Assembly (NCBI GenBank): GCA_009694195.1
Contig: SHVQ01000008.1
Location: 10,465 to 74,464 of the forward strand
Length of the DNA: 64,000 bases
Direction of reading: 5' to 3'
From: Rhodospirillales bacterium
GTDB lineage: Bacteria; Pseudomonadota; Alphaproteobacteria; Rhodospirillales; SHVQ01
The notes beneath the pieces are model-generated. The model was not told the origin of the DNA, did no database searches, and saw only the letters and a program-made list of their open reading frames with translations. The position numbers were made by a program, and so were the translations under genes. The stretch's first letter is position 1. Each line of letters opens with the position of its first letter. Below are positions 13,436 through 36,976 of this stretch, piece after piece.

Positions 13436-13515
13436 GTCCGCTCTCCCGTCCTACTGTGATCCGGTTCGAATCACGCTCAAGGTCCATCCTATCACATCGG
13501 CTGACGGCGCTTTGC

Positions 13516-13548
13516 CTGGCATACCGAAATCGCCTGATCTGGACCTAG
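13516..13548 (+). promoter_or_regulatory. Candidate TauR direct-repeat operator upstream of ald-xsc
   Basis: CTGGCATACC (13516) and CTGGACCTAG (13539), 23 bp period. The second box resembles the CTGGACYTAA TauR repeat as I recall it. Confidence 0.5.
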
Positions 13549-13647
13549 TAATTTGCGAATCAACCGCCTAATCAACGACTTGGTGCAAAAACCGCAGCTT
13601 GATAAACGAGCGGCGGACAAAACCAATTCTACCGGAGGAAAATTGAA

Positions 13648-14766
13648 ATGCACGTTGGCGTTCCGAAGGAGATCAAGACCGACGAGAACCGTGTCGGCAT
13701 GGTGCCGTCGAGCGTGCGGGAATTCGTCCACCATGGCCACACCGTCTTCGTGGAAACAAACGCAGGTGCCGGCATCGGCGTCTCTGACGCCGACTACGAG
13801 AACGCCGGCGCAAAAATCGCGATGTCGGCGAAGGACGTTTTCGCCGACGCCGAGATGATCGTGAAGGTCAAGGAGCCCCAGGCCCAGGAGCGCGCTTGGT
13901 TGAAGCCTGGCCAAATCCTATTCACGTATCTCCACCTCGCACCCGATCCCGACCAGACGCGCGACCTGGTCAAGAGCGGCGCCGTTTGCATCGCCTACGA
14001 GACGGTGACCTCGCCCCACGGCGGGCTCCCGCTGCTGGCGCCGATGTCGGAAGTCGCCGGCCGCATGTCGATCCAGGCCGGCGCCCATTGCCTGGAAAAA
14101 AAGGCGGGCGGGCGTGGCGTGCTGCTGAGCGGCGTCACCGGCGTTCCGCCGGCCAAGGTCGTCGTGCTGGGCGGCGGGGTCGTCGGCACCAACGCCGTCT
14201 TCGTCGCCCTCGGCATGGGCGCCGACGTGGTCGTTCTCGACCGCAACGTGGGCGTGCTGCGCCGCCTGGGCGAGCAGTTCGGCGCCGCCCTCAAGACTGA
14301 ATTCTCGACCCGCGAGTCGGTGACCGAGCACGTCCTGCAGGCCGATCTCGTCATTGGCGGGGTGCTTATCCCCGGTGCGGCCGCACCGCGACTCGTCACC
14401 AAGGATATGTTGAAACGCATGAAACCGGGCGCGGTGCTGGTGGATGTGTCGATCGACCAGGGCGGATGCTTTGAGACCTCGCGCGCGACCACGCATTCGA
14501 AGCCGACCTATATCGTCGACGGCATCGTTCACTACTGCGTCGCCAACATGCCGGGCGGAGTTCCCAGGACCTCGACCTTCGCGCTCAACAACGTGACGTT
14601 GCCGTTCGCGCTCGCCATCGCCGGCAAGGGATACGCGAAGGCGCTCAAGGATGACGCGCACCTGCGCGCCGGGCTCAACGTCTGTCGGGGCAAGGTGACC
14701 AACAAGCCGGTGGCGGACGCGCTCGGGTATCCTTTCGTCGAGCCGAACGAGACGCTCGCGGCCTGA
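13648..14766 (+). CDS. ald: Alanine dehydrogenase
   Basis: GVPKEIK..ENRV, VKVKEP, FTYLHLA, PMSEVAGR, DQGGCFETS, HYCVANMPG. Confidence 0.96.
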   Translation: MHVGVPKEIKTDENRVGMVPSSVREFVHHGHTVFVETNAGAGIGVSDADYENAGAKIAMSAKDVFADAEMIVKVKEPQAQERAWLKPGQILFTYLHLAPDPDQTRDLVKSGAVCIAYETVTSPHGGLPLLAPMSEVAGRMSIQAGAHCLEKKAGGRGVLLSGVTGVPPAKVVVLGGGVVGTNAVFVALGMGADVVVLDRNVGVLRRLGEQFGAALKTEFSTRESVTEHVLQADLVIGGVLIPGAAAPRLVTKDMLKRMKPGAVLVDVSIDQGGCFETSRATTHSKPTYIVDGIVHYCVANMPGGVPRTSTFALNNVTLPFALAIAGKGYAKALKDDAHLRAGLNVCRGKVTNKPVADALGYPFVEPNETLAA

Positions 14767-17155: not shown

Positions 17156-18151
17156 TCACGCGCGCGCGAGGGCGATGGCGGCGGAGGCCACGATGTCGTC
17201 CACCGTGGCGCCGCGCGAAAGATCGCTGATCGGTTTTGCGAAACCCTGCAGAACGGGGCCGATCGCCTGCGCGCCCGCCAGGTACTGCGTCAGCTTGTAG
17301 CCGATGTTGCCGGCGTCGAGGTCGGGGAAGATCAAGACGTTCGCCCGCCCGGCGACCGTGCTTTCGCCCTTCACCTTGCGCGCAGCCACGCTCGCGACGA
17401 GCGCCGAGTCGGCCTGGAGCTCGCCGTCAAACGCGATCTCGGGCGCCCGCTCCCGCGCGATGGCGAGCGCGCGTGTAACTTTGTCGACGCGGGGGTGTTG
17501 GGCGCTGCCCCGCGTCGAGAACGAAAGAAACGCCACGCGCGGCTCATCTTCGAGGAGCTTCCGGGCGCTCGCCGCCGACGCAAGCGCGATGTCGGCAAGC
17601 GCCTCCGCCGTCGGCTCCACGTTGACCGCGCAGTCGGCGAAGATGAGCGGCACGTCGCGTTGGCTCTGAAACTCCGGGATCACCATCAAGAAGAAGCTCG
17701 ACGGCGTGTTGATGCCGGGGGCGAGCCCGACCGTCAGAAGGCCGGCCTCGATCACGCGACGGGTCGGGTTGGCGGCGCCGCCGATCATGGCCGCGGCCTC
17801 TCCCTGTCGCACCATCATGCCGCCGAAATAAAGGGGCTTTTGGACGAGCCGCCGCGCGACCTTCGCGTCCACGCGCTCGCGCCCGGCCGCATAGGACGCG
17901 GCGTACGAGTCGATGCGCGCGTCGGTCTGGGGGTCGATAAGCGTAAGTCCGTCGAGCGACACGCCCGCGCGCGCCGCGGCCGCGGATATGCTTTCTTCCG
18001 AGCCGAGAAGGATCGGCTCTGCGATGCCCCCGTCTTGGAGCCGGCGCGCCGCGAGGAGAATGCGCGCTTCGGTGCCTTCCGGAAGCACGACGGGCAAGCG
18101 GCGGCGAGCTGCCGCGGTCACGATCCGATCGACAATACTCTCCACGCTCAC
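17156..18151 (-). CDS. pta: Phosphate acetyltransferase
   Basis: [44 protein letters not shown]. Confidence 0.92.
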
Positions 18152-20749: not shown

Positions 20750-20759
20750 GGAGCCGGCG

Positions 20760-26593: not shown

Positions 26594-28315
26594 CTACGCA
26601 GCCGACTCTTTGACCAACGTCTGGCCGGGTCGCACGCGGGCAAACTGCACGCTTTCGGTCGCGACGCAAGCAAGGTCGCCGTCCATCCGAACGCGGGTCG
26701 AGTAGGCCGGATCCTTGGCCGCCGGGTTCGAGAAGTCGGAGCGGAAATGGGCGCCGCAGGAATCCCGGCGCGCGGCCGACGACGCGACAATGGCGCGGCT
26801 CACCAGGATCAAATTCTTGAGGTTGAGCCAGTCGTGCCAAGTGAGGTTATAGGCGAGGTTGTCGGCGGAAACCCCCACTTGATCCAGCTCCCGCTCCAGG
26901 GCTTCGAGACCCGTCTCCGCCCGGTGGAGAGAATGGGAGTCGCGGATGATGCCCGCGTCCTCCCACATGAGCTCGTAAAGGCGCTCGCGGACGGATTCCA
27001 GGTTAGCCGGCGGCCGCTTGAGGGGCGCCCGGCATCGTTCGAGGGCGCTCTCGATCGCGGCCTCGTCGGGCTCGCGCACGGCGCCCTGCTCCGCGACCCA
27101 GCGGGCCATGGTGTCGCCGGCGATGCCGCCGAACACGGTCGAGTTGGCGACCCCGTTGCCGCCGAGCCGATTCGCCCCGTGGACGCCACCCGTGTCCTCG
27201 CCCGCCGCGAACAAGCCCGTCAAGGCGGTCGCGCAGTCCGGCTGGAAGACCAAGCCGCCCATCATGTAATGCGCCGTCGGCACCACTTCGACCAAGCCGT
27301 GCACCAGATCGAACCCGTAGTCCGCGCAGCGCTCGACCATGCCTTTGAAGTTCATCCGCACCTGGTCGTGGTCGAGGTGGCGCATGGTGAAGTAGACGCC
27401 GCCGTTGGCACTCGTGTTGCCCTTCCGCATCTCCTGGAACATGGCGCGACTCACGATGTCGCGGGTCGCGCGGTCGGCGCGCGGATCGTAGTCGAGCATG
27501 AAGCGGCGCTCCTCGCCGTCGAGCAGGTAGCCGCCGAATCCGCGAAGGCCCTCTTCGATGACCGTGCCGGTGATGCGGGTCTCCGGGCCGGCGAGCAGGC
27601 CGGTCGGGTGGAACTGCACCATCTCCATATCGCGCAAGGTCAACCCGGCCCGGAGCGCCATGGCGAGCCCGTCGCAGCTCTTGTCGCCGGAGGGCGTGTG
27701 ATACCTGTACATGGTCGGGCCGCCGCCGGTCGCCAGCAACACCGCCTTCGCCCGGACGAATAGGAATTCTCCCGTGCTCATCTCCATCATGAGGACACCG
27801 GCGACGGCGTCTCCGGACGGCGTCTTGATCAGGTCGACCGCGCGGGTGTCTTCGAGGCGATGGATGTCGCGGACCCACACCTGCTCGGCGAGCCGGTTGA
27901 TGATCTCGATCCCCGTGAGATCGCCCTTGTGGACCGTGCGGTCGAAGGTCTGACCGGCGAATGCCTTCTGGTGGATGCTGCCGTCCGGATTGCGGTCGAA
28001 GAAGCAGCCGAGCTCGTTTTCGAGCTCGCGCACCCGCTCGGGCGCGGTCGCGACCAGGGTCCAGGCGAGGTCCTGGTCGTTGATCCAGGCGCCGCCTTCG
28101 ATCGTGTCCATGAAGTGGCGCTCGACCGAGTCGCCCTTGACGAGGGCGACGTTGTAGCCCCCCTGCACCATGCGCGTGCATCCGCACTTTCCGAGCAGGC
28201 CTTTGACGGCGATGGTGATGGAAAGGCTGGAATTGGCCGCGTGGGCGTGGAGGGCCGCAAACAGGCCGGCGCCGCCGGCGCCGAGAATCAGGATATCGGT
28301 GTCGAGCCCCCTCAC
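26594..28315 (-). CDS. SdhA/FrdA/NadB-family flavoprotein (non-canonical)
   Basis: GAGGAG, QFHPTG, RATRDIVSR, PTAHYMMGG, HGANRLGGN. Lacks the RSH covalent-FAD motif. GTG overlaps the upstream TGA. Confidence 0.88.
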   Translation of the reverse strand: MRGLDTDILILGAGGAGLFAALHAHAANSSLSITIAVKGLLGKCGCTRMVQGGYNVALVKGDSVERHFMDTIEGGAWINDQDLAWTLVATAPERVRELENELGCFFDRNPDGSIHQKAFAGQTFDRTVHKGDLTGIEIINRLAEQVWVRDIHRLEDTRAVDLIKTPSGDAVAGVLMMEMSTGEFLFVRAKAVLLATGGGPTMYRYHTPSGDKSCDGLAMALRAGLTLRDMEMVQFHPTGLLAGPETRITGTVIEEGLRGFGGYLLDGEERRFMLDYDPRADRATRDIVSRAMFQEMRKGNTSANGGVYFTMRHLDHDQVRMNFKGMVERCADYGFDLVHGLVEVVPTAHYMMGGLVFQPDCATALTGLFAAGEDTGGVHGANRLGGNGVANSTVFGGIAGDTMARWVAEQGAVREPDEAAIESALERCRAPLKRPPANLESVRERLYELMWEDAGIIRDSHSLHRAETGLEALERELDQVGVSADNLAYNLTWHDWLNLKNLILVSRAIVASSAARRDSCGAHFRSDFSNPAAKDPAYSTRVRMDGDLACVATESVQFARVRPGQTLVKESAA

Positions 28316-28923
28316 CCGCGGACCCCGATGGATTTGAGCGCAGCCGCCCGGCGATCGGCCGCCCGGCCCTGCACGTCGGCGTAGAGGCTCGCCCCGTGCG
28401 AATCCATGCCGACAAGGAGCGGCCCGAACCCCCGGACCCTGAACTTCCAGAGGCTCTCCGGGTTGAGATCGTCGAGATCGACGTCCTCGATCCGCTCGAT
28501 CCACGTGGTTTCGAGCGCGGCCGTGCCGCCGATCACGGCGAGGTAGGCGCCGCCCAAGTCGCGGAAAGCTTTCGAAGTCTCCGGCCCGAGGCCGCCCTTG
28601 CCGATGATGAGCCGGACGCCGTGACGCTCCATCAGCGGGCGGGTGAACCGCTCCATGCGGGCGCTCGTCGTCGTGCCGATGCAAAGGGGGGCGTAGCCGG
28701 CCGGGTGCTCGGCCGACGGCGGGACCTTTTTCGCGCCCGGCGCCGTGTGAAGCACGGCATGGTCCCGGAGATCGAAACGGGTCGTGCGGCCGCGGTCGAA
28801 CATGTGGATGAGCGTCGCGTCCCGGATGCCGAACAGCGTCCCTTCCAACGTAACGCGATCGCCGACGCGGAGCTTGCGAACGTCCGCTTCGGAACAGGGC
28901 AGGCGAAGCGTAAGCTCCGTCAT
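28312..28923 (-). CDS. Fe-S hydro-lyase (class I fumarase / tartrate dehydratase) beta subunit
   Basis: LRVGDRVTLEG, TTTSARME, IIGKGG, FGPLLVGMDSHG.SLY. Confidence 0.88.
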   Translation of the reverse strand: MTELTLRLPCSEADVRKLRVGDRVTLEGTLFGIRDATLIHMFDRGRTTRFDLRDHAVLHTAPGAKKVPPSAEHPAGYAPLCIGTTTSARMERFTRPLMERHGVRLIIGKGGLGPETSKAFRDLGGAYLAVIGGTAALETTWIERIEDVDLDDLNPESLWKFRVRGFGPLLVGMDSHGASLYADVQGRAADRRAAALKSIGVRG

Positions 28924-28926
28924 GGC

Positions 28927-29286
28927 CTACTCCCGGAGAGCCCGCATGACTGCTTTGGGATCGCGATCAATCGCCACCAGCAAGGCACGCGCAGGACCCT
29001 CTGGTACGCGGCGGCCCTGTTCCCAATTCCGCAATGTGTGAGCGCTGATGCGGAAGGCGCGCGCGAACCGATCCTGCGAGAGCCCGGTCTTTCCCCGAAT
29101 CGCCGCAACGTCCAGCGGCTTAACGACGCGCAGCGTGCCGTCTTTTAGGGCAGCCCTAAGATCAATGGATGCCGTCGAGGTGTCATCCTCCGCCGCGTGC
29201 CGAGCAATATCCGATTCTGTGGTCCTCGCCACGATCCTGCGCCGGACGCGCGCCTTCCAGCGTGCCCGATCAACCGAATACTTCAT
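28927..29286 (-). CDS. HTH-XRE antitoxin-like regulator
   Basis: DVAAIRGKTGLSQDRFARAFRISAHTLRNWEQGRRVPEGPARALL. Confidence 0.82.
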   Translation of the reverse strand: MKYSVDRARWKARVRRRIVARTTESDIARHAAEDDTSTASIDLRAALKDGTLRVVKPLDVAAIRGKTGLSQDRFARAFRISAHTLRNWEQGRRVPEGPARALLVAIDRDPKAVMRALRE

Positions 29287-29342
29287 GATAAACCTCGCGC
29301 GCGAAGATTGGCCTCGCTCTTCGTGTCGTCCCACTCAAACAT
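29283..29342 (-). pseudogene. 19-codon remnant of a BrnT-like toxin
   Basis: Translates MFEWDDTKSEANLRARGLS*, resembling the FEWD..K...NL..HG BrnT N-terminus. Its TGA overlaps the antitoxin ATG (ATGA). Confidence 0.7.
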
Positions 29343-29350
29343 GGTTGACT

Positions 29351-29384
29351 ATAAGCCATTGACTTATATAGGTCAATGGCTTAT
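29351..29384. promoter_or_regulatory. 34-bp palindromic operator of the TA remnant
   Basis: ATAAGCCATTGAC-T-TATATA-G-GTCAATGGCTTAT, one mismatch, AT-rich, contains TTGAC. Confidence 0.7.
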
Positions 29385-29389
29385 GTCGC

Positions 29390-30265
29390 CTAAAATCCCA
29401 GCTCCACGCCCTTCGGTGTGAAGGTGGCGGTCGCGCGCCTGGCCGAGTGGCATTGAATGTTGACGGCGACCGGGTTCATGGTGATGTGGGTCGCCGCCGT
29501 CTCCACATGCACGGCGAAGGCGGTCGCGTTGCCGCCCAAGCCCTGCGGCCCGATGCCGAGGCTGTTGACGGCCCGGCTCAGCTCCTGTTCCAGCTTCGCC
29601 CCTTCGGCGTCCGCGCAGCGGGACCCGAGTGCCCGCGTCGCCGCGATCTTGGCCAGGTGCATGCAGAGGTCCGCCGTGCCGCCGACCCCGACGCCGACGA
29701 TGGTCGGCGGGCACACGCGGCCGCCCGCCTCGATCACCTTGTCGACGACGAAGGTCTTGATGGCGTCGACGCCCTCGGCCGGGATCGCCATCTTGAGGAA
29801 GGAGCCGTTCTCCGAGCCCGATCCCTTCGGGATCATCTCGATCGTGAGCGTCTCATCCTCGGCCGAGAAGTCGATGTTGATGACGGGGATGCGCTCACCC
29901 GAGGACGTATGCGCGTTCACCCGCGTGATCGGATGCACGATCGAGGAGCGGAGCGGATGCTCCCGCGTCGCGCGCTCGCAGCCCTTGATGATCGCTTCCT
30001 TGAGGGCATGACCGTCCACCTGCACGCGCCTCCCGATGGTCACGTTGTAAATGGGAATTCCGGTATCCTGGCAGAGGAGATTGTTGGTCTTCTCGGCGAC
30101 CCCGATGTTCTCGATCATCGTCTTGAGGATGCTCTTGCCGGTCGGATCGGTCTCGGCCGCATCGAGGCGCTTGAAGCCCTCCTTGATATCCGGCGGCAAT
30201 ATCTTCAGCGCCCGGATGTAGAGAAGCTTCGCGGTTTCCTCGACGGCAGCGAGATCGACGATCAT
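29390..30265 (-). CDS. Fe-S hydro-lyase (class I fumarase / tartrate dehydratase) alpha subunit
   Basis: LCQDTG, PKGSGSEN, VCPP..VGVGVGG, LGIGPQGLGG, QCH.ARR. Confidence 0.9.
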   Translation of the reverse strand: MIVDLAAVEETAKLLYIRALKILPPDIKEGFKRLDAAETDPTGKSILKTMIENIGVAEKTNNLLCQDTGIPIYNVTIGRRVQVDGHALKEAIIKGCERATREHPLRSSIVHPITRVNAHTSSGERIPVINIDFSAEDETLTIEMIPKGSGSENGSFLKMAIPAEGVDAIKTFVVDKVIEAGGRVCPPTIVGVGVGGTADLCMHLAKIAATRALGSRCADAEGAKLEQELSRAVNSLGIGPQGLGGNATAFAVHVETAATHITMNPVAVNIQCHSARRATATFTPKGVELGF

Positions 30266-30312
30266 GCTAGGTTTCCCTCTGCTGTAGGCCCCATCCGTGG
30301 GCAGGTCGAAGC

Positions 30313-30654
30313 TCAGGATGCGACGAGAAAGAACGCGAGTCCGACGAGCACGCTCAGCCCCCCGGCGGCGGCGACGAGGGTCTTCTGCCAGTCGCGCCAG
30401 GGAAGAAATTCAACGGCGAGCACGCGGAGGCCCCCCGTCAGGTGCGCGGCAAGCAGCACGATCAGGAGCGCCTCGGCGATCTTGACCGGCGGCTGAGCCG
30501 ACCACCGGAGAAAGCCGTCGAGCGCGGCCTCGCCCTCGATGGCGAACGCGAGGACATAGAAATGCACGGGCAAAAAGAGAGCGAGCGCGAGGCCGGAGAC
30601 GCGGTGAAGGACGAACGCCCAATAGGTCGGGTGGTTGCGGTGCCCGCTCGCCAT
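30313..30654 (-). CDS. Sdh cytochrome b / membrane anchor-like subunit (SdhC-like)
   Basis: LHRVSGLAL..FLPVH, AAHLTGGLRVL; three TM segments. Confidence 0.8.
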   Translation of the reverse strand: MASGHRNHPTYWAFVLHRVSGLALALFLPVHFYVLAFAIEGEAALDGFLRWSAQPPVKIAEALLIVLLAAHLTGGLRVLAVEFLPWRDWQKTLVAAAGGLSVLVGLAFFLVAS

Positions 30655-30998
30655 CAGGCTGCCCCGTAAAGGCCCCACGCGGCCCGGAATCCCAGCGCCA
30701 AAATCAACCCGGCGGTGGCAACGGCGAGTCCGTCCACGACGCCCCGCCGGAGCGCAGTCATTTCGTGGAGGATCGTACGAATTCCGATCGGCCCGTGCAC
30801 CGCGACGGCGGCGACGAACAGGCTGTAGAACGCCAGCCAAGCGCCGCTGCCGCGGACGCGCGCGAGAATCTCGGCGCCGGTCAATCCGCCTTGCACCGCG
30901 ACGATAATGGTCGCGAGATGGACGATGACGCAAAGCCCAAGCACGGCGGCGCTTCCCCGCTGGGCGACCCACAGCAGAACTTGGCCGCGCGGCGTCAT
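30654..30998 (-). CDS. Sdh membrane anchor-like subunit (SdhD-like)
   Basis: WVAQRGSA.VL...VHL, VHGPIGIRTILHE; three TM segments. Confidence 0.78.
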   Translation of the reverse strand: MTPRGQVLLWVAQRGSAAVLGLCVIVHLATIIVAVQGGLTGAEILARVRGSGAWLAFYSLFVAAVAVHGPIGIRTILHEMTALRRGVVDGLAVATAGLILALGFRAAWGLYGAA

Positions 30999-31711
30999 AT
31001 CTGGCCCTTGAGAGCCGCCCAGGCCGCCGCCCGCTTGAGGCCGGCGATCGAGGCCGTCGGGTTCAAATGCTTCGGGCAGTGCTCCTGGCAGCTTTGGTGC
31101 GAGTGGCAGGCGTGGCAGCCCGCGTCGCCGGCGACCGCGGCGAGGCGCGTCGCCTGCCCGCCGTCGCGCGTGTCGCTAAAGAGCGTCCACGCGCGATTGA
31201 GCGCGGCGGGGCCGAGGTAGTCCCGGTTCCATGCGACCACGTCGCACGCCGCATGGCAAACCCCGCAGCCGATGCATTCGATCCCGGCGTCGGCCTGCTT
31301 GCGCGCAGCCGAGTCGGGGCGCACCACGGCAAAGCCGTCCCGCCGGCTCGCGGTCGGCTGGAACTGCCCCTTCGCACGCGCCCATTTGTCGAAGAACTCC
31401 CGCATGTCGACGGCGAGATCCTTGATCACCGGAAGATTTCGAAGCGGCGCAATGGTGAGGTCGCCGTTTTTCGCGACGCGGTCGACGTGGGTGCGGCAGG
31501 TCCAGCGCGGCCGGCCGTTCACCGTCATCGCGCAGGAACCGCACATGCCGACCCGGCAGGCGAACCGATAGCTCAAGGAGGCATCGATCCTTCGCTGGAT
31601 GTGGGTCACCACGTCGAGCACGGTTTGGCTCGCGCGGCGCGGCACCGAATAGGCGACGAACGCGCCCCGCTCGCTGCCCCGCCAGACTTGCACGCTCAAC
31701 GTCTCGGTCAT
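30995..31711 (-). CDS. Sdh/Frd iron-sulfur subunit (SdhB-like)
   Basis: CRVGMCGSC...C (2Fe-2S), CIGCGVCHAAC, CHSHQSCQEHCP. Confidence 0.9.
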   Translation of the reverse strand: MTETLSVQVWRGSERGAFVAYSVPRRASQTVLDVVTHIQRRIDASLSYRFACRVGMCGSCAMTVNGRPRWTCRTHVDRVAKNGDLTIAPLRNLPVIKDLAVDMREFFDKWARAKGQFQPTASRRDGFAVVRPDSAARKQADAGIECIGCGVCHAACDVVAWNRDYLGPAALNRAWTLFSDTRDGGQATRLAAVAGDAGCHACHSHQSCQEHCPKHLNPTASIAGLKRAAAWAALKGQI

Positions 31712-31718
31712 GTCGGGA

Positions 31719-32528
31719 TCATAGGCGGTCGAGCGCCGGGCTGCCACGCCCGCCGTCTTCACGGCGCAGCGCCGGCAGCATGAACATCACCATGCCGATC
31801 GCAGCGGCAGCAAAAACGTGCTTCAGCGTGTGGCCGCTCACGACACCGCCGAGCGCGGCGAACACGGCGTGGTCGCCAACTTCGAGCAGCTTGGCGACAC
31901 CGTAGAGGACGAAGACCCAAATGATGTAAGGGACTTTCGTGTACCGCGCGCGCGGGAACAGCCAGCAGATCACCGGCATCCCGAGCATCGGGAGAAACTG
32001 GACGATGCCGTAGGGGCGGAGATCGCCGCGCCCGTTGTGTTCGGTCCATGCCCAATAGCCGACGCTCGCGACGCCGATGAGCACGAAGCCGGCGAGCACA
32101 TGGGCCGCGGCCTGCCGATCGATACGGTCGGTCACGATGGCGGCGAGAAAGGACATGAAGGCAACCGTCATCGGCAGCCGGTCCCAGATGAGCGTCCCGT
32201 TGCCGGGAGCCCAGTGATAGTACGCGGATCCGAGGCCTATTCCGATCGCGGCCAGGAAAAAGAGCGCGTAGGGAGCCGCCTCCTCAGGCGTGTCGAAACC
32301 ACCGCCTCGGAGCGAGCGCCGGACGGCCAGGAGGCCGAGCGCGCCGGCCGCGGCGAACGCCACATTCGACAATACGTTCGCCGCGTTGGGAACGCCGAGC
32401 CAGCCGCGGGCGTCGGCGAATTCGTGGTACGCGGGCGGCTGCGGGACGGGCGGGAACATTGCGAAAACGGCCGCGGCCGCGACCACGAAGTAGCCGACGA
32501 CGGCGCCGATTCGAGTGTGGAAGGTCAT
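31719..32528 (-). CDS. Alkaline ceramidase-like (CREST) membrane hydrolase
   Basis: YHEFADAR...PNAANVLSN, GSAYYH, WDRLPM, SGHTLKH. Confidence 0.78.
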   Translation of the reverse strand: MTFHTRIGAVVGYFVVAAAAVFAMFPPVPQPPAYHEFADARGWLGVPNAANVLSNVAFAAAGALGLLAVRRSLRGGGFDTPEEAAPYALFFLAAIGIGLGSAYYHWAPGNGTLIWDRLPMTVAFMSFLAAIVTDRIDRQAAAHVLAGFVLIGVASVGYWAWTEHNGRGDLRPYGIVQFLPMLGMPVICWLFPRARYTKVPYIIWVFVLYGVAKLLEVGDHAVFAALGGVVSGHTLKHVFAAAAIGMVMFMLPALRREDGGRGSPALDRL

Positions 32529-32537
32529 CGGCGTCCT

Positions 32538-33407
32538 TCAGGCCAAGGCTTCGGCGAGCGCGGCGCCGACATCGTTCGGCGTCGCCAGCACGCGGACTCC
32601 GGCGCGCTCAAGGGCGCGGCGCTTGGACGCATAGCTTCCCTTGTCGCCGACCACGATCGCGCCGGCATGACCCATCTTGCGGCCTTCGGGCGCGGCACCG
32701 CCGGCGATCAGCGCGACGACGGGCTTCTTCATCGTGACCGCGTATTCGGCCGCTTCCTCTTCCATGGTGCCGCCGATCTCGCCGACTATGACGACAGCTC
32801 GCGTGCCCGGGAACGTGTCCAAGGCTTCGAGCGCTTCGCGCGTGGTGGTGCCGATGACCGGATCGCCGCCGATCCCGACGAACGCCGATTGGCCGAAGCC
32901 CGCCTGGCAGATGCTGAGGCAGACGAGCGTGCCCAAGCTGCCGCTCCGGGAGACGACGCCGACCGCGCCCGGGCGGACGATCTTCGCGTTGAAGGCGGGC
33001 ATGAAGCCTGCGAAACATTCGCCCGGCGTGACCGTACCGGCCGTGTTGGGTCCGAGCACGCGCGTCCCGGCCTCCTTCGCCGCGGCGAGGATATACATGG
33101 TGTCCTGCACCGGCACGTGTTCGGTTAACACGACAAGTCCCTTGGCGCCTGCTTCGATGGCGTCGAGCGCAGCCTCCTTGACGCCGAGCGGCGGAATGAA
33201 CAGTACGGAGACATCGAAGCCGTTTCCTTTCATGGCGGCCTTGGCGCTCGCGTAAACCGGGAGGCCCAAGTGCGTCTCGCCCCCTCGCTTCGGATTGACG
33301 CCGCCCATGATGGCCGTGCCGTACTCCCGCATGCGTTCGGCCCAGAACGTTCCTTGTTTTCCGGTGATTCCCTGGATCAGCACGCGATCGGGTCGCCTGA
33401 GAATCAT
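32538..33407 (-). CDS. ADP-forming CoA ligase alpha subunit (SucD-like; probable sulfoacyl-CoA ligase)
   Basis: QGITGKQG, GPNTAG, SRSGSL, GIGGDP, phospho-His in MGHAGA. Confidence 0.85.
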   Translation of the reverse strand: MILRRPDRVLIQGITGKQGTFWAERMREYGTAIMGGVNPKRGGETHLGLPVYASAKAAMKGNGFDVSVLFIPPLGVKEAALDAIEAGAKGLVVLTEHVPVQDTMYILAAAKEAGTRVLGPNTAGTVTPGECFAGFMPAFNAKIVRPGAVGVVSRSGSLGTLVCLSICQAGFGQSAFVGIGGDPVIGTTTREALEALDTFPGTRAVVIVGEIGGTMEEEAAEYAVTMKKPVVALIAGGAAPEGRKMGHAGAIVVGDKGSYASKRRALERAGVRVLATPNDVGAALAEALA

Positions 33408-34525
33408 CGCGCCGCCTCCACCGCGGCCTTGCAGGCGAGCGCCATGGTCGGGAAGGGATCGAGGCCGAGGCGCTTCTTCAGAATGGCGATCGCCTCCACG
33501 TCGCCGGTGCCGTCGATCGAGAAGAAGATCGGGACCGAAGGCTTCAGCTCCTGCCACGCCGCCGCGACGCCTTCCATCATCACGTCGCAGCGCGCGAAGG
33601 CGCCGCAGAAGTTGACGACCAGGCTTTTGACGTGCGGATTGGCGAGCACGAGCTCGAGCGCGGGCTTGGCGCGCGTATACGACTCGCCGCCGATCTCGAG
33701 AAAGTTGGCGGGCCGCCCGCCCCAGTGACGGACCATGTCCATGGTCGCCATGGTGAGCCCGGCGCCGTTGGCGAGCACGCCGACGTTGCCGTCGAGCTCG
33801 ATGAATTTGAGCGCAAGGTCCTTGCCCCGCTGTTCGAGCGGCGACAGCGTCTCCGGCGTGCCGCGGGCGGCAAGCTCGGCGTGCCGGGGAGCGGCAGAAT
33901 CGTCCATGACGAACTTGCAGTCGAGCGCGACCGGGCCGGACGCCGTCAACGCGAGCGGGTTCACTTCCAGGAGCTCGGCGTCGTGGCGGCGATAGACGCT
34001 GTAGAGGCTTACGAGAAACTTGGCGACGGCCGGCTCGTGATCTCCCAGATCCAGTCCCCGCACCAGCGCGCGGGCCGCTTCATCGGCAAGGCCTGATCGG
34101 ATGTCAACATGGTGTCGCCGCACGCGCTCGGGTCTGGCGGCGGCGATCTCCTCGATATCCATCCCGCCTTCGGTGGAGAAGAGGACGAGCGGTTGGCGGG
34201 CGGCGGCGTCGTTGAGAACCGCCGCGTAAAGCTCGCGCTCGATCGCGACCTGCTCTTCGACGAGCACGCGCGCGACCGCGTGGCCGCCGATCGCCATGCC
34301 GAGAATCCCGCGCGCCGCAGATTCGGCCTCTTCCGGCGTCTGGGCCCGCCGGATGCCGCCCGCCTTGCCGCGCTTTCCTGCCGGCACCTGCGCCTTGACC
34401 ACCACCGGCCCAAGCGCGCGGGCGGCGGCGGCGGCTTCCTCGGACGTCGTTGCGAGGCGGCTGCGGGGGACCGCGATCCCCGCTTCCGCGAGCAGCGGCT
34501 TCGCCGCGCATTCCTCGAAATTCAT
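33404..34525 (-). CDS. ADP-forming CoA ligase beta subunit (SucC-like; probable sulfoacyl-CoA ligase)
   Basis: VKAQV.AGKRGKAGG, EGGMDIEE, LEVNPL, NGAGLTMATMD, PANFLEIGG. Confidence 0.85.
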   Translation of the reverse strand: MNFEECAAKPLLAEAGIAVPRSRLATTSEEAAAAARALGPVVVKAQVPAGKRGKAGGIRRAQTPEEAESAARGILGMAIGGHAVARVLVEEQVAIERELYAAVLNDAAARQPLVLFSTEGGMDIEEIAAARPERVRRHHVDIRSGLADEAARALVRGLDLGDHEPAVAKFLVSLYSVYRRHDAELLEVNPLALTASGPVALDCKFVMDDSAAPRHAELAARGTPETLSPLEQRGKDLALKFIELDGNVGVLANGAGLTMATMDMVRHWGGRPANFLEIGGESYTRAKPALELVLANPHVKSLVVNFCGAFARCDVMMEGVAAAWQELKPSVPIFFSIDGTGDVEAIAILKKRLGLDPFPTMALACKAAVEAAR

Positions 34526-34530
34526 GCAGC

Positions 34531-35955
34531 TTACTTGCCGTATTTCGCCCAGTAGGCGCCGAACAGCGCCTCCTCGGACGGCTTGTCCTCGGGGATGACG
34601 GTCACGAGATGGGTCACGTTGATGAAGTGCCGGTAGTTGAGATTTTCGCTGATCGAGTTTCCGCCCCAGGTGCCGCACCCCATGCTGAGGGTGAAGTTGA
34701 GGCCGTTGTCGAAGCTGCCGCCGTTGCCGAACGCGTGGGCCTGGTTGACGAGCACGCGGACGACGTCGAGCTCCTCGGCGAGCCGCCTCGCGTTGGCCAT
34801 GGCCTTCGTATGGATGCCGACGGAGTGTCCGCGGCCGACGAAATCGAGCACGGCCCGCACCTGGGCGACCGCGGCGTCGAAGTCTTTCGCTTTGTAGAGG
34901 GTGAGCACGAGCGCGAGCTTCTCGTCGGAAAACGGACGATCGGGCCCGGCGCCTTCGTCCTCGACCATGAAGAACTTGGCGTTCCCCGCGGCCTCGGGGA
35001 GCCCGGCCTCGCGGGCGAACACGGGCGCATCCTTGGCGATGACCCGCCGGTTGAGCTTGCCGCCGACCCAGAGCGTCTGCTCGACCTTTTTCTTCTCCTC
35101 CGGCGAGCAGAGATAGCCGCCCGCCGCCTGCAAGGCCCCGAGCGCCCGGTCGTACACATCCGCAAGGATGGTGACCGAGTTCTCGGACGAGCACGAGGTC
35201 GCGTTGTCGAAAATCTTGGACGCGCAAATCTTATCGGCCGCGTCCTTGACGTCCGCCGTCGAATCGACGATGACGGGCACGTTGCCGGTGCCGACGCCGA
35301 TCGCGGGCGTGCCGCTCGAATAGGCCCGGCGCACGTTGTCCTGGGAGCCCGTCACCACCACGAGATCGGCGGCCTCCATCAGCGCCTGGGTGAGCGCCTT
35401 GTCCACCGGCTCCGGCAACACTTGCACCAGGTCCTCGGGGGCGCCGATCCGCCGGAGCTCGCTTTGCATGTGCTCGACCGTGCGGGCGGTCGTCCGGTAC
35501 CCCGCGGGCGAGGGCGCAACGACAATCGCGTTGCGGCCCTTGACCGCCATCATCGCCTTGTTGACCGGCGTGGCGGCGGGGTTGGTCGCGGGCACGACGG
35601 CGGCGACGACGCCGACCGGCTTCGCGTACTTGACGATGCCCCGCGCCCGGTCCTCCTCGATCACGCCGACGGTCTTGACGCGCAACAAGTCGCGCAGCGT
35701 GCCGAACGTCTTCCGCTGGTTCTTGACGATCTTGCTCGCGACGTTCCCGAGACCGGTGTCGGCGGCGGCAAGCTCGGCCAGCTCACGCGCGCGCTCCGGC
35801 TTGTAGATCGACCAGGCGAGCGCGGTCACCGCCTCGTCGACCCGCGCCTGGTCGGCATTCGCGAACGCTGCCATGGCGGCGCGCGCCCGCGCGATCAGTC
35901 CGGGGATGGCGGCGGCGGGACCGGTTTCCGGCTCCGCGCGCGAGATGGCGGTCAT
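34531..35955 (-). CDS. sauS: Acylating aldehyde dehydrogenase, SauS-like (sulfoacetaldehyde dehydrogenase)
   Basis: KNQRKTFGTLRDL, PATNPAATP, GVGTGNVP, FDNATSCSSENS, GGSFDNGLNFTLSMGCGTWG; sulfonate context. Confidence 0.8.
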   Translation of the reverse strand: MTAISRAEPETGPAAAIPGLIARARAAMAAFANADQARVDEAVTALAWSIYKPERARELAELAAADTGLGNVASKIVKNQRKTFGTLRDLLRVKTVGVIEEDRARGIVKYAKPVGVVAAVVPATNPAATPVNKAMMAVKGRNAIVVAPSPAGYRTTARTVEHMQSELRRIGAPEDLVQVLPEPVDKALTQALMEAADLVVVTGSQDNVRRAYSSGTPAIGVGTGNVPVIVDSTADVKDAADKICASKIFDNATSCSSENSVTILADVYDRALGALQAAGGYLCSPEEKKKVEQTLWVGGKLNRRVIAKDAPVFAREAGLPEAAGNAKFFMVEDEGAGPDRPFSDEKLALVLTLYKAKDFDAAVAQVRAVLDFVGRGHSVGIHTKAMANARRLAEELDVVRVLVNQAHAFGNGGSFDNGLNFTLSMGCGTWGGNSISENLNYRHFINVTHLVTVIPEDKPSEEALFGAYWAKYGK

Positions 35956-36031: not shown

Positions 36032-36976
36032 TTAGCGCGGGAGACTGTCGAGGTGCCGTTTGACCGTGCGGTGAAAGTCGATGACCGTCGTCATGGCATT
36101 CTCCGGCGGCTCTTTCCGGATGCACGTGTAGGTCCTCACGCAAAAAACACCCCAGTCCGTCGTTTGGAGAGCCTTGTCGAAGACGCCGGTCAGCGCGCGA
36201 ATGCGATCTCCAGGCGTTCCCGCCCGCACGACGAGAGCGCGGAAATTATAGAGGTTGCCGACGTCGATCCCGAGCTCCTGCGACGTGGTCACGGTCGGAA
36301 ACGCATAGTGGCGTACGTCGTCGAACACGACGAGGGGCCTAAGTTGGCGCGCCGAGACGTACCGGGTGACGTCGCCCGGCTCCTCATACAGAGCATCGGT
36401 CTCGAGATCGACCGTCGATCGATAACGCTCGACCGGATTTGGGAACGGGATGTTGACCATCGGATAGCCGAGCGACGCCAGCGACCGGAGGGCAACGTCG
36501 TCGTCGGTCCCGAATCCTGAAGTCGCGACCTTGAGGGCCCGCGGGTTCGCCTTGGCATGCCCGAGCAGGTCCTGGATGGTGGCGAACGGGCTTTGTCTCG
36601 GGACGAACAGCATCGAGGGCGAATTCTGCGCCCAGGCCACGATGGCAAAATCGTCGGGCTTTGCGGCACCGAGACCGGCCGCCCAGGACGCGACCGAGAG
36701 CCCCACCAGGGTTGCCACCGTGTAGCCGTCGGGGGGCCGCCCGGTGAGCTTCCCGAGGCCTTCGTTGCCGGAGGCGCCGGCGACGTTCGAAACACGGATC
36801 GGAACACCCAGCAGAGGCTCGGCCAGTCTCGCCAGCGTCCGCGCCATCAAGTCGGCGCCGCCCCCCGGCCCGAAGGTGACGATCAGATCGATCGGCCGCG
36901 CGGGAAACGGCTCCTGGGCTTCGACCGGCCCGGCGGCGAGCCACCCGGCGAGAATCCCGGCGACGATGCGGAGCAT
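36032..36976 (-). CDS. Tripartite tricarboxylate transporter substrate-binding protein (TctC/Bug)
   Basis: FPARPIDLIVTFGPGGGADLMAR, NVAGASG, PDGYT; signal peptide. Confidence 0.85.
   Translation of the reverse strand: MLRIVAGILAGWLAAGPVEAQEPFPARPIDLIVTFGPGGGADLMARTLARLAEPLLGVPIRVSNVAGASGNEGLGKLTGRPPDGYTVATLVGLSVASWAAGLGAAKPDDFAIVAWAQNSPSMLFVPRQSPFATIQDLLGHAKANPRALKVATSGFGTDDDVALRSLASLGYPMVNIPFPNPVERYRSTVDLETDALYEEPGDVTRYVSARQLRPLVVFDDVRHYAFPTVTTSQELGIDVGNLYNFRALVVRAGTPGDRIRALTGVFDKALQTTDWGVFCVRTYTCIRKEPPENAMTTVIDFHRTVKRHLDSLPR

What the first reader, a model, noticed from the sequence alone, without database searches (positions are those of the whole stretch)
26594..35955. Candidate 'sulfo-succinate' pathway: SauS, SucCD-like ligase, Sdh-like complex and fumarase-like hydro-lyase in one run
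Seen: one strand encodes an acylating aldehyde dehydrogenase, an ADP-forming CoA ligase, SdhB/D/C-like subunits, a two-subunit Fe-S hydro-lyase and an SdhA-like flavoprotein, with xsc, pta and tauR nearby. The gene order is not the housekeeping sdhCDAB. Established: SauS plus a SucCD-like ligase interconvert sulfoacetate and sulfoacetaldehyde, which needs no Sdh or fumarase. 3-sulfopropionate, 3-sulfoacrylate and 3-sulfolactate are the sulfonate analogues of succinate, fumarate and malate. Inference: 3-sulfopropanal > sulfopropionyl-CoA > 3-sulfopropionate (+ATP) > 3-sulfoacrylate (quinone-linked) > sulfolactate, then desulfonation. I know of no characterised version of this route.
Basis: partly seen in the sequence, partly recalled or inferred. 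Interest (0 to 1): 0.85.

Follow-up and report, generated by a model that had tools for sequence, protein, structure and literature searches.

The report
Sulfonate-linked succinate-dehydrogenase and fumarase look-alikes
A second, unusual copy of the succinate dehydrogenase and fumarase genes sits among sulfonate-degradation genes here and in many other bacteria, and probably turns 3-sulfopropionate into sulfolactate, a breakdown step whose enzymes have not been described.

Summary
A minus-strand run, 36976-26594, encodes a TctC-type binding protein, SauS, a SucCD-like ADP-forming ligase, a ceramidase-like membrane protein, SdhB/D/C-like subunits, a two-subunit Fe-S hydro-lyase and an SdhA-like flavoprotein. 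Canonical sdh and sucCD lie on another contig.

The run is best read as two modules.

(1) tctC-sauS-ligase matches the published sulfoacetate system SauZ/SauS/SauCD. Its orthologues in related genomes sit directly beside xsc.

(2) sdhBDC-hydrolyase-sdhA is a conserved, widespread module in alpha-, beta- and gammaproteobacteria. At least 596 relatives were found, and 46 of 56 informative loci keep the same gene order. None of the 80 fetched loci holds sauS or the ligase. SuyAB-like sulfolactate sulfo-lyase genes lie within 10 kb in 25 of 36 fully flanked loci, and ComC-like dehydrogenase genes in 28 of 36. In a 301-genome Burkholderiales-type sample, all 47 genomes with the flavoprotein also have SuyB.

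Most likely chemistry: 3-sulfopropionate > sulfoacrylate > sulfolactate > pyruvate + sulfite. This is inferred, not shown. The substrate (sulfosuccinate?) and the direction stay open, because the FAD-linking histidine is an invariant cysteine.

Its role for SauS and the ligase is not specifically supported.

The parts
36032..36976 (-). TctC/Bug-type periplasmic binding protein, SauZ-like by position (first gene of the run)
   Evidence: It has paralogues at 26-29% identity elsewhere in the genome. A 49%-identical homologue heads a tctC-tctB-tctA-sauS-ligBA run in L118. The published SauZ is a TctC-type sulfoacetate-binding protein (PMC10413351). NCBIfam gave no hit. I ran no Pfam scan on it, so the family name rests on these homologies.
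34531..35955 (-). CoA-acylating sulfoacetaldehyde dehydrogenase, SauS
   Evidence: NCBIfam NF047625 SauS equivalog, 795.6 bits against a cut-off of 600. In the SauS tree it belongs to one group with the 16 other SauS proteins of the order.
33404..34528 (-). ADP-forming acyl-CoA ligase, beta (SucC-like) subunit
   Evidence: ATP-grasp_2 and Ligase_CoA domains. It scores 347.5 bits, under the succinate-CoA ligase cut-off of 370. It is 39% identical to the canonical SucC on C1.
32538..33407 (-). ADP-forming acyl-CoA ligase, alpha (SucD-like) subunit
   Evidence: CoA_binding and Ligase_CoA domains. It scores 321.2 bits, under the cut-off of 336. It is 44% identical to the canonical SucD on C1.
31719..32528 (-). 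Ceramidase-like membrane protein, probably a passenger gene
   Evidence: PF05875 at 38.7 bits. The protein atlas places it nearest alkaline phytoceramidase clusters, score 0.98. No homologue was found in the 80 module loci or in the 18 sauS loci.
30995..31762 (-). SdhB-like iron-sulfur subunit (the likely start is near 31711)
   Evidence: TIGR00384 at 193.3 bits, over its cut-off of 88. Fer2_3 and Fer4 domains are present. It is 35% identical to the canonical SdhB on C1.
30654..30998 (-). SdhD-like membrane anchor
   Evidence: PF01127 at 28.7 bits. TIGR02968 scores 24.8, under its cut-off of 41.8.
30313..30651 (-). SdhC-like cytochrome b subunit
   Evidence: PF01127 at 43 bits. TIGR02970 scores 50.6, just under its cut-off of 52.3.
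29390..30265 (-). Fe-S hydro-lyase alpha subunit (class I fumarase/TtdA type), proposed sulfoacrylate hydratase
   Evidence: PF05681 at 296.6 bits. It also passes the NF004885 'fumarate hydratase' cut-off, 306.9 bits against 276. The closest solved chain is 7XKY_A, a two-subunit fumarate hydratase.
28927..29376 (-). Inserted HTH (MqsA/NadS-like) gene with its own promoter-like site and an inverted repeat; not part of the pathway
   Evidence: HTH_31 domain; MqsA and NadS families score below their cut-offs. A promoter-like site matching 10 of 12 positions lies at 29376-29348. The sequence was read. No equivalent was found in 80 loci. Contigs of runs X2 and X3 cover the insertion.
28312..28923 (-). 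Fe-S hydro-lyase beta subunit (FumA C-terminus/TtdB type)
   Evidence: PF05683 at 108.2 bits. TIGR00723 scores 142.3, just under its cut-off of 145.15. The closest solved chain is 7XKY_B.
26594..28315 (-). SdhA/FrdA/TfrA-like flavoprotein, proposed 3-sulfopropionate dehydrogenase subunit
   Evidence: The best family is TfrA at 504 bits, under its cut-off of 718. SdhA, FrdA and NadB families also score under their cut-offs. PF00890 and PF02910 domains are on record; the database form of the protein has 573 aa. A Cys replaces the FAD-linking His in 54 of 54 clade members.
14801..16513 (+). Sulfoacetaldehyde acetyltransferase Xsc, the likely sink for the SauS product
   Evidence: TIGR03457 at 910.8 bits, over its cut-off of 676.4.
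17156..18151 (-). Phosphate acetyltransferase Pta
   Evidence: TIGR00651 at 324.3 bits, over its cut-off of 311.2.
9858..14766 (.). Omega-aminotransferase (9858-11171, -), MocR/TauR-like regulator (11310-12800, +) and alanine dehydrogenase (13648-14766, +): a taurine-type entry to sulfoacetaldehyde
   Evidence: AptA equivalog at 645.5 bits. MocR-family hits and alaDH at 501.4 bits.

Best explanation
The run joins two sulfo-carboxylate modules.

Module A is tctC-sauS-ligase. It imports sulfoacetate, activates it to sulfoacetyl-CoA and reduces it to sulfoacetaldehyde. The Xsc and Pta encoded in the same window then convert this to acetyl-CoA and sulfite. This function is established for homologous systems and inferred here.

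Module B is sdhB-sdhD-sdhC, the two hydro-lyase subunit genes, and sdhA. It is a membrane-bound enzyme of the complex II type plus a hydratase of the class I fumarase type, acting on a sulfonate analogue of succinate. The most likely steps are:
1. 3-sulfopropionate is oxidised to 3-sulfoacrylate, with the electrons passing to quinone.
2. 3-sulfoacrylate is hydrated to 3-sulfolactate.
3. SuyAB cleaves 3-sulfolactate to pyruvate and sulfite. SuyAB is on contig C35 in this genome and in the same operon in many others. An alternative exit runs through sulfopyruvate and sulfoacetaldehyde to Xsc.

Shown here: gene content, paralogy with the housekeeping enzymes, conserved synteny, and co-occurrence with sulfolactate genes.
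Inferred: the substrate, the direction and the products.
For: Paralogy:
- Canonical sdhA/B and sucCD are on contig C1 at 33-44% identity.

Distribution and gene order:
- 596 of 599 candidate stretches in genome contigs encode relatives of the flavoprotein.
- Of 56 loci with at least 4.5 kb upstream of sdhA, 47 hold all five partner genes, and 46 keep the window's order sdhB-D-C-fumA-fumB-sdhA.

Neighbours, counted in the 36 loci with full 10-kb flanks:
- SuyB-like in 25, ComC-like Ldh_2 dehydrogenase in 28, a ThDP enzyme in 15, TauE in 9.
- At least one of SuyB, ComC, TauE or SsuA in 31.
- Family labels come from one representative per cluster.
- Homologues of the genome's own SuyB at 82-87% identity are named '(2R)-sulfolactate sulfo-lyase subunit beta' by JGI.

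Whole-genome co-occurrence:
- In the Burkholderiales-type sample, 47 of 301 genomes have the flavoprotein and 56 of 301 have SuyB. All 47 carry both, and 9 have SuyB only. Without the unpublished genome G310 the figure is 46 of 46.
- The window's own genome has SuyA/SuyB on C35.

Catalytic residues:
- The equivalents of FrdA chain residue His233, and of the residues I recall as SdhA Arg286, His354 and Arg399, are kept in 53-54 of 54 clade members.

Module A:
- SauS scores over its equivalog cut-off.
- xsc and pta are in the window.
- Orthologues run sauS-ligB-ligA-xsc in L117.
- SauCD, SauS and SauZ have been characterised in Bilophila wadsworthia (PMC10413351; passages and section 9).

Prior for the chemistry:
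- PMC11489063 (passages) cites a thesis reporting the route 3-sulfopropionate > sulfoacrylate > sulfolactate.
Against: - No enzyme of module B has been assayed, and nothing in the sequences proves a sulfonate substrate.
- The hydro-lyase alpha subunit passes NCBIfam's 'fumarate hydratase' cut-off. I noted by eye, from the translations and the alignments, that the stretches I recall as the substrate and cluster motifs of class I fumarases look unchanged. No call tallied this.
- In the 73%-complete genome no other fumarase gene was found.
- The histidine that carries covalent FAD in succinate-oxidising enzymes is Cys in 54 of 54 clade members. Thr245 of the FrdA chain is Glu in 54 of 54. By recalled mutant work on E. 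coli FrdA, loss of the covalent bond favours reduction over oxidation.
- Sulfosuccinate, followed by a SuyAB-like sulfomalate lyase, would fit the same neighbours.
- In this order only 11 of 19 module genomes have SuyB. Two of them (G020, G071) showed none of SuyB, Xsc or the ligase.
- The close co-occurrence of modules A and B in this order (16 of 19) could mean one pathway rather than two.
Confidence: 0.5

Rival explanations
1. One linear pathway. SauS oxidises 3-sulfopropanal (from homotaurine or 3-hydroxypropanesulfonate) to 3-sulfopropionyl-CoA. The ligase releases 3-sulfopropionate and makes ATP. The Sdh-like complex and the hydratase then carry it on to sulfolactate.
For: - All the genes lie in one tightly spaced run.
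- 16 of 19 SdhA-like genomes of the order have the ligase orthologue.
- 6 of 18 sauS-ligase loci hold the module within 10 kb, in different arrangements. In L111 a zinc alcohol dehydrogenase follows ligA, opposite suyAB-sdh-fum.
- HpfX and HpfYZ perform exactly this chemistry in Enterococcus gilvus (PMC11489063).
- BwSauCD keeps 20% of its activity with 3-sulfopropanoate (PMC10413351).
Against: - SauS passes the sulfoacetaldehyde-specific equivalog cut-off.
- Orthologues sit in one run with xsc (L117; a partial xsc next to ligA in G091).
- The 17 SauS proteins of the order form one group regardless of context.
- With family-level searches, 19 of the 20 ligase genomes show Xsc or pieces of it.
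- 0 of 80 module loci hold sauS or the ligase.
- 3 of 5 cultured module genomes have no SauS homologue.
Confidence: 0.2
2. Module B acts on another sulfonated succinate analogue. The leading candidate is sulfosuccinate, going to sulfofumarate and then sulfomalate. The SuyAB-like lyase would then release sulfite and oxaloacetate, or a ComC-like dehydrogenase would lead on to sulfopyruvate.
For: - Both carboxylate-binding His/Arg pairs of the flavoprotein are kept. I noted by eye, with no tally, that the hydratase stretches I recall as binding the far carboxylate look unchanged.
- This reading gives the frequent ComC-like gene a role (28 of 36 loci).
- The chemistry of a 2-hydroxy-3-sulfo acid lyase would be the same as that of SuyAB (my inference).
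Against: - I know of no natural source of sulfosuccinate (recalled).
- The module occurs in 47 of 301 sampled species genomes of one order, and in marine and freshwater MAGs. That argues for a common natural substrate.
- The 3-sulfopropionate route has a literature precedent; this one has none that I found.
Confidence: 0.1
3. Module B runs in reverse. The hydro-lyase dehydrates sulfolactate to sulfoacrylate, and a quinol-dependent reductase reduces that to 3-sulfopropionate as an electron sink. This would be the sulfonate counterpart of malate > fumarate > succinate.
For: - The FAD-linking His is an invariant Cys (54 of 54).
- The best family hit of the flavoprotein is the thiol:fumarate reductase subunit TfrA.
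- TauE/SafE-family genes, which can export sulfonates (PMC11489063), are frequent neighbours: TauE-family cluster c14 in 19 of 80 loci and cluster c23 in 9 of 80.
Against: - Many hosts are Burkholiales-type bacteria that, as far as I recall, have only ubiquinone, whose potential does not favour enoate reduction.
- The product would be a dead end.
- Operon linkage to SuyAB fits a feeder role better than a competing branch.
Confidence: 0.1
4. Module B is an ordinary second succinate dehydrogenase or fumarate reductase with a fumarase, and lies in sulfonate islands only by chance.
For: - The main catalytic residues are conserved.
- The hydro-lyase alpha subunit scores over the fumarate hydratase cut-off.
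- No other fumarase was found in this incomplete genome.
Against: - 47 of 47 genomes co-occur with SuyB, against 9 of the 254 genomes without the flavoprotein.
- SuyAB-like genes lie in the same operon-like run in many loci.
- Canonical Sdh is present in this genome.
- A separate single-chain fumarase is present in 5 of 5 relatives.
- All SdhA, FrdA, TfrA and NadB equivalog scores are below their cut-offs.
- The clade has active-site changes of its own.
Confidence: 0.07

Closest known systems
Succinate:quinone oxidoreductase / quinol:fumarate reductase (complex II; E. coli SdhCDAB, FrdABCD) and thiol:fumarate reductase TfrAB
   Same: Four subunit types are present: a flavoprotein with PF00890 and PF02910, an Fe-S subunit of the 2Fe-2S plus Fer4 type, and two small Sdh_cyt anchors. 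The catalytic His and Arg positions are kept. Solved SdhA and FrdA chains match at E-values of 1e-83 to 1e-54.
   Different: - The gene order is sdhB-D-C ... sdhA, with the hydratase genes in between.
- Identity to the genome's own SdhA is 33%.
- Every equivalog score is below its cut-off.
- Cys stands in place of the FAD-linking His, and Glu in place of the active-site Thr, each in 54 of 54 members.
- The genomic company is sulfolactate genes, not TCA-cycle genes.
Two-subunit class I (Fe-S) fumarate hydratase (M. jannaschii, PDB 7XKY) and L-tartrate dehydratase TtdAB
   Same: The same two Pfam families are present, and the alpha subunit scores over the PRK06246 cut-off. The best solved match is 7XKY, chains A and B.
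   Different: The beta subunit is below all curated cut-offs. The genes are embedded between sdhC-like and sdhA-like genes and beside suyAB. Relatives keep a separate single-chain class I fumarase.
Sulfoacetate degradation: SauS with the ADP-forming ligase SauCD and the TTT transporter SauXYZ (Bilophila wadsworthia), or SauS with SauT and Xsc (Cupriavidus necator)
   Same: The layout is TctC-type gene, then SauS, then a SucCD-like ligase. Xsc and Pta are in the window. In relatives, tctC-tctB-tctA precede sauS (L111, L118). The published functions were read from passages and section 9 of PMC10413351.
   Different: No TctA or TctB gene lies next to tctC in this window. The cluster continues straight into the sdh/fum genes. 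According to the paper, alpha- and gammaproteobacterial SauZ neighbourhoods mostly hold the AMP-forming SauT rather than SauCD.
HpfX/HpfYZ of Enterococcus gilvus (3-sulfopropanal > 3-sulfopropionyl-CoA > 3-sulfopropionate + ATP)
   Different: In E. gilvus this is a fermentative pathway that excretes 3-sulfopropionate. I made no sequence comparison with HpfXYZ because I had no access to those sequences.
Sulfolactate degradation through SuyAB, with ComC/SlcC, SlcD, ComDE and Xsc (Paracoccus, Chromohalobacter, Roseovarius; recalled from the literature, not read here)
   Same: SuyAB-like, ComC-like, D-2-hydroxyacid dehydrogenase, FMN-dependent dehydrogenase and TauE genes flank module B.
   Different: As far as I recall, none of the described sulfolactate clusters includes Sdh-like or fumarase-like enzymes.

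Membership tests
SauS (acylating sulfoacetaldehyde dehydrogenase) | Score over the NCBIfam equivalog cut-off (NF047625, 600 bits) | tested here: met
   795.6 bits, full-length match covering residues 15-474.
SauS (acylating sulfoacetaldehyde dehydrogenase) | Genomic link to a sulfoacetaldehyde consumer (Xsc) and to a sulfoacetate-CoA ligase | tested here: met
   The ligase is adjacent. xsc and pta are in the window. xsc is adjacent to orthologues in L117. Xsc or pieces of it were found in 19 of 20 ligase genomes.
SauS (acylating sulfoacetaldehyde dehydrogenase) | Substrate preference for sulfoacetaldehyde and sulfoacetyl-CoA | not testable with these tools
   Needs an enzyme assay.
Succinate-CoA ligase SucCD | Scores over the equivalog cut-offs for the beta and alpha subunits | tested here: not met
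   Beta subunit: 347.5 bits against 370. Alpha subunit: 321.2 bits against 336. A separate SucCD lies on C1.
Complex II (SQR/QFR) | Four-subunit make-up: flavoprotein, Fe-S protein and two membrane anchors | tested here: met
   Conserved in 47 of 56 informative loci.
Complex II (SQR/QFR) | Catalytic His and Arg residues of the dicarboxylate site | tested here: met
   The equivalents of FrdA chain His233, and of the residues I recall as SdhA Arg286, His354 and Arg399, are kept in 53-54 of 54 clade members.
Complex II (SQR/QFR) | Histidine for the 8-alpha-N3-histidyl FAD bond (FrdA chain His45) | tested here: not met
   Cys in 54 of 54 members. HMMER and MAFFT alignments agree.
Complex II (SQR/QFR) | Active-site Thr of the capping-domain loop (FrdA chain Thr245) | tested here: not met
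   Glu in 54 of 54 members.
Complex II (SQR/QFR) | Score over any curated SdhA, FrdA, TfrA or NadB cut-off | tested here: not met
   The best is TfrA at 504 bits against 718. All others are also below their cut-offs.
Class I two-subunit fumarate hydratase | Alpha and beta subunits over curated cut-offs | tested here: inconclusive
   The alpha subunit scores 306.9 bits, over 276 (NF004885). The beta subunit is below every cut-off: 142.3 against 145.15, 139 against 264, and 124.4 against 269.
Class I two-subunit fumarate hydratase | It is the organism's fumarase for the TCA cycle | tested here: inconclusive
   No other fumarase was found in the 73%-complete genome. However, 5 of 5 relatives with the module have a second, single-chain class I fumarase, and 2 of those 5 also have FumC.
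SuyAB-linked sulfolactate catabolism (as the proposed context of module B) | Co-location and co-occurrence with suyAB | tested here: met
   25 of 36 fully flanked loci. 47 of 47 genomes in the 301-genome sample. 11 of 19 in the window's own order. The SuyB name rests on JGI annotation of 82-87% homologues, not on an assay.

The most novel reading that the evidence does not exclude
Module B is a dedicated 3-sulfopropionate:quinone oxidoreductase, that is, a complex II whose flavin site carries an invariant cysteine instead of the histidine. With it comes a sulfoacrylate hydratase. Together with SuyAB they form the missing aerobic route that mineralises 3-sulfopropionate, and the route is present in roughly one in six sampled species of a Burkholderiales-type order and in many Rhodospirillales-type bacteria.
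Probability: 0.5. Interest if true: 0.8.

Novelty: new variant of a known kind. Interest (0 to 1): 0.7.

Why it matters
3-Sulfopropionate is a product of bacterial sulfoquinovose/DHPS fermentation and of homotaurine deamination. A January 2026 review still calls the mechanism of its degradation unclear (PMC12890257, passages). I found no paper in the held library that names a sulfopropionate dehydrogenase or a sulfoacrylate hydratase.

If the reading is right, it does three things:
- It supplies candidate genes for that step.
- It shows that a complex II-type respiratory enzyme has been recruited for an organosulfonate.
- It gives a marker for tracking this part of the sulfur cycle in freshwater, soil and marine genomes.

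The invariant His-to-Cys change at the flavin attachment site also bears on how complex II enzymes tune direction and potential.

Tried and rejected
- Protein-level searches at first suggested that some genomes with the ligase and module lack Xsc. Family-level searches overturned this: G056 scores over the cut-off, and G064, G075, G079 and G091 hold gene pieces at contig ends. I dropped the argument built on those absences.
- I searched for a sulfopyruvate decarboxylase in the window's own genome. Two ComE-like hits came back, both below the cut-off at 144 and 128 bits against 221.5, so this is not decisive. ComE scores over the cut-off in G056 and G079.
- The look-up of sequencing runs listed no RNA holder, so expression could not be examined.
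- The terminator and promoter scan gave fewer terminator-like sites than shuffled sequence (4 against a mean of 8.1). It does not define operon ends.
- My GC3-based ORF filter failed on low-GC loci such as L003. Neighbour counts were therefore redone by tblastn.
- One ORF that I sent to Pfam as the dehydrogenase next to suyA (L129:9514-10524) was in the wrong frame and gave no hit. The tblastn match lies in the frame of ORF 9071-10504.
- I considered cysteate oxidation by a NadB-like flavoprotein. I set it aside because it leaves the tightly linked hydro-lyase without a role.
- I did not run structure prediction or complex prediction. These tools return no coordinates or ligands that could separate a sulfonate from a carboxylate.
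- Supplementary files of the papers were not opened. The thesis cited in PMC11489063 and the paper PMC2747907 (not held) could not be read.

Full report
WHAT IS THERE. ORF listing and family scans confirm a minus-strand run from 36976 down to 26594. It holds, in order:
- a TctC/Bug-type binding protein (36032-36976);
- SauS (34531-35955; NCBIfam SauS equivalog, 795.6 bits against a cut-off of 600);
- a SucC-like (33404-34528) and a SucD-like (32538-33407) ligase subunit, both just under the succinate-CoA ligase cut-offs;
- a ceramidase-like membrane protein (31719-32528);
- SdhB-like (30995-31762), SdhD-like (30654-30998) and SdhC-like (30313-30651) subunits;
- an Fe-S hydro-lyase alpha subunit (29390-30265);
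- an inserted HTH gene (28927-29334);
- the hydro-lyase beta subunit (28312-28923);
- an SdhA/TfrA-like flavoprotein (26594-28315).

Gaps between genes are 76 nt or less, and several stops and starts abut or overlap (coordinates). The window also holds xsc (14801-16513), pta (17156-18151), alanine dehydrogenase, a MocR/TauR-like regulator and an omega-aminotransferase. These are separated from the run by gstA, a citrate synthase, soxBDAG-like genes and manC. Contigs from other public runs bridge ligA, the ceramidase-like gene, sdhB and on to fumA (30130-34185 in X2), and they cover the HTH insertion, including in a run from a different study (X3). The layout is therefore real.

PARALOGY. The genome is 73% complete, in 49 contigs. 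It has a separate sdhA/sdhB and sucC/sucD on contig C1, 33-44% identical to the window's copies. No class II fumarase scores over its cut-off, and the only class I fumarase hit is the window's own. In five relatives that carry the module, each has a second fumarase-family gene in a 550-641-residue open frame, that is, a single-chain enzyme. Two of them also have FumC. The missing housekeeping fumarase here is most simply explained by assembly gaps, but that is not shown.

THE SDH/FUMARASE MODULE ELSEWHERE. The flavoprotein has very many relatives at 70-76% identity. In one-genome-per-species contigs, 596 of 599 candidate stretches encode a relative, and 80 loci were kept, from alpha-, beta- and gammaproteobacteria, several of them named isolates. 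Of 56 loci with at least 4.5 kb upstream of sdhA, 47 hold sdhB, sdhD, sdhC, fumA and fumB, and 46 keep the window's order. None of the 80 holds sauS, the ligase, the ceramidase-like gene or the HTH gene.

I clustered the neighbouring ORFs and scanned one representative per cluster. The recurring neighbours are:
- a split altronate-dehydratase-type pair (SuyA/SuyB-like);
- an Ldh_2 dehydrogenase whose best family is L-sulfolactate dehydrogenase (203 bits, under its cut-off);
- a D-2-hydroxyacid dehydrogenase;
- two TauE/SafE families;
- an SsuA/TauBC-like ABC transporter, TctC proteins and a TAXI-TRAP system;
- a TauD dioxygenase, a ComA-like protein, a sulfatase-family protein and an FMN-dependent 2-hydroxyacid dehydrogenase;
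- a ThDP enzyme of unknown specificity;
- GntR and LysR regulators.

By tblastn in the 36 loci with full flanks, SuyB-like genes occur in 25, ComC-like in 28, and at least one of SuyB, ComC, TauE or SsuA in 31. The SuyB name rests on JGI's annotation of 82-87% identical homologues and on what I recall of the family. It does not rest on an assay.

WHOLE-GENOME CO-OCCURRENCE. In a 301-genome sample of the order around Bordetella petrii's genome, 47 genomes have the flavoprotein (E <= 1e-150) and 56 have SuyB (E <= 1e-100). All 47 have both, and 9 have SuyB alone. One genome, G310, is flagged unpublished; without it the figure is 46 of 46. Related genomes are not independent, but the link is very tight.

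In the window's own order (101 genomes) the counts are:
- flavoprotein in 19;
- ligase orthologue (58% identity or more) in 20;
- SuyB in 21;
- Xsc in 22 at the protein-level threshold.

The overlaps are: flavoprotein and ligase, 16; flavoprotein and SuyB, 11. Family-level searches added Xsc, or pieces of it, in G056, G064, G075, G079 and G091. That corrected an earlier impression of absence. The window's genome itself has SuyA and SuyB on contig C35.

THE SAUS/LIGASE MODULE. Eighteen loci from the order hold orthologues of sauS and both ligase genes.
- Six of them have the sdh module within 10 kb. Three of those have suyAB between or beside the two modules (L111, L113, L114). The other three carry a variant in which divergent hydro-lyase genes follow sdhA (L119, L121, L128). 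L121 also has a TauE-family gene between ligA and the sdh genes.
- In L117 xsc follows ligA directly and pta is next to it. In G091 a partial xsc lies beside ligA.
- In L111 and L118 a tctC-tctB-tctA set precedes sauS.

A maximum-likelihood tree puts the 17 SauS proteins of the order in one group (support 93/97), and the contexts follow taxonomy rather than forming paralogue clades. [quoted passage not shown] Three of five cultured genomes with module B have no SauS homologue at E <= 1e-30. I therefore read sauS and the ligase as a sulfoacetate module that feeds Xsc.

HOW MODULE B MOST LIKELY WORKS. A dehydrogenase of the succinate type coupled to a hydratase of the fumarase type, set in front of a 2-hydroxy-3-sulfo-acid lyase, points to this route: 3-sulfopropionate > 3-sulfoacrylate > 3-sulfolactate > pyruvate + sulfite. 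By my reading of the CIP priority rules, a hydratase with fumarase stereochemistry would give (2R)-sulfolactate, the isomer named for SuyAB. The ComC-like and other dehydrogenases could open the known side route through sulfopyruvate and sulfoacetaldehyde to Xsc (recalled from work on Roseovarius). All of this is inference. A thesis cited in PMC11489063 is said to report exactly these intermediates for homotaurine degradation in Roseovarius nubinhibens (passage). I could not read it, and I do not know which enzymes it names.

FEATURES THAT CUT BOTH WAYS. The flavoprotein keeps the His and Arg residues of the dicarboxylate site. But in 54 of 54 clade members the histidine that carries covalent FAD in E. 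coli FrdA (chain residue 45) is a cysteine, within the conserved stretch KCGCTRMVQGG. The active-site threonine (chain residue 245) is a glutamate. From recalled mutant work, loss of the covalent bond abolishes succinate oxidation but not fumarate reduction, so the complex might run as a reductase. Alternatively the cysteine might itself bind the flavin. Most hosts are, as far as I recall, ubiquinone-only aerobes, which favours the oxidative direction. By eye, the cysteine-containing stretches and the far-carboxylate stretch that I recall from class I fumarases look unchanged in the hydro-lyase (translations; alignments); no call tallied this. Its alpha subunit passes a 'fumarate hydratase' cut-off. 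Sequence alone therefore cannot exclude fumarate, or another substituted succinate such as sulfosuccinate.

LITERATURE. I ran searches for sulfoacrylate, sulfopropionate dehydrogenase, sulfoacrylate hydratase, the CoA esters, and combinations with succinate dehydrogenase. They found no description of such enzymes. Only three held papers mention sulfoacrylate or sulfoacrylic acid at all. A January 2026 review says the mechanism of 3-sulfopropionate degradation in B. wadsworthia remains unclear (PMC12890257, passages). The library lacks most subscription journals, and supplements were closed, so prior publication cannot be excluded.

VERDICT. The novel element is the conserved, SuyAB-linked complex II and fumarase look-alike module. 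It is a new variant of known enzyme kinds, with a well-supported sulfonate context and an inferred substrate.

Noticed in passing
window 28927-29390 (- strand): About 460 nt are inserted between the two hydro-lyase subunit genes. The insert holds an HTH (MqsA/NadS-like) gene, preceded by a 19-codon ORF and a 9-nt inverted repeat that overlaps a promoter-like site (10 of 12 positions). It looks like the remnant of a toxin-antitoxin cassette. A 58%-identical HTH paralogue lies on contig C20. The insert is absent from all 80 related loci but present in contigs of runs X2 and X3.
   Followed up: partly
window 31719-32528 (- strand): A ceramidase-like (PF05875) multi-pass membrane protein is wedged between ligA and sdhB. 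No homologue was found in the 98 related loci, and its role is unknown.
   Followed up: partly
L024, L025, L026, L032 (between suyB and sdhB); L018, L048, L056, L078, L080 (after sdhA): A ThDP enzyme of about 550 aa recurs beside the module, in 23 of 80 loci. Its best families, all under their cut-offs, are 2-hydroxyacyl-CoA lyase, acetolactate synthase and Xsc. It is 25-29% identical to the window's Xsc. It could be a new sulfo-keto-acid decarboxylase or lyase.
   Followed up: partly
L010, L011, L033, L042 (between sdhC and tctC): A ComA-family (phosphosulfolactate synthase-like) gene lies inside the module operon in these four loci. A sulfatase-family gene lies there in 7 of 80 loci (L011 and L033 among them). 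This hints at a phosphorylated or sulfated precursor, or at sulfite capture.
   Followed up: no
L040, L055, L072, L074, L119, L121, L128: A variant module in which hydro-lyase genes only 29-35% identical to the window's follow sdhA, instead of preceding it. L040 has both kinds. The variant is still found beside sauS and the ligase, TauE, or sulfonate ABC transporter genes.
   Followed up: partly
L003, L006, L017, L034, L061: Marine or Rhodospirillales-type loci with sdhB-D-C-sdhA but no hydro-lyase genes between them (L006 is cut upstream of fumB). L003 and L006 have xsc (46-47% identity) and a pta-like gene a few kb downstream.
   Followed up: no
window 42589-48184 and 19493-24632: Genes that resemble the N-methylglutamate pathway for methylamine: a glutamine amidotransferase-like gene, an FwdC-like gene, a GltB-like gene and a type III glutamine synthetase. 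With them is a four-subunit sarcosine-oxidase-like set (soxBDAG-like). The pathway name is recalled, not tested.
   Followed up: no
window 3355-11171: A TAXI-TRAP transporter, an FAD oxidase, an ABC ATPase, a CoA-acylating methylmalonate-semialdehyde dehydrogenase and an AptA-type omega-aminotransferase lie next to the MocR regulator. This looks like a beta-alanine/taurine-type amine entry route.
   Followed up: no
window 37078-38137 (+ strand); L126 13442-14508: An AzlC-family gene and a small partner gene lie divergent from tctC. Homologues at 48-50% identity lie beside sauS in L126 as well.
   Followed up: no
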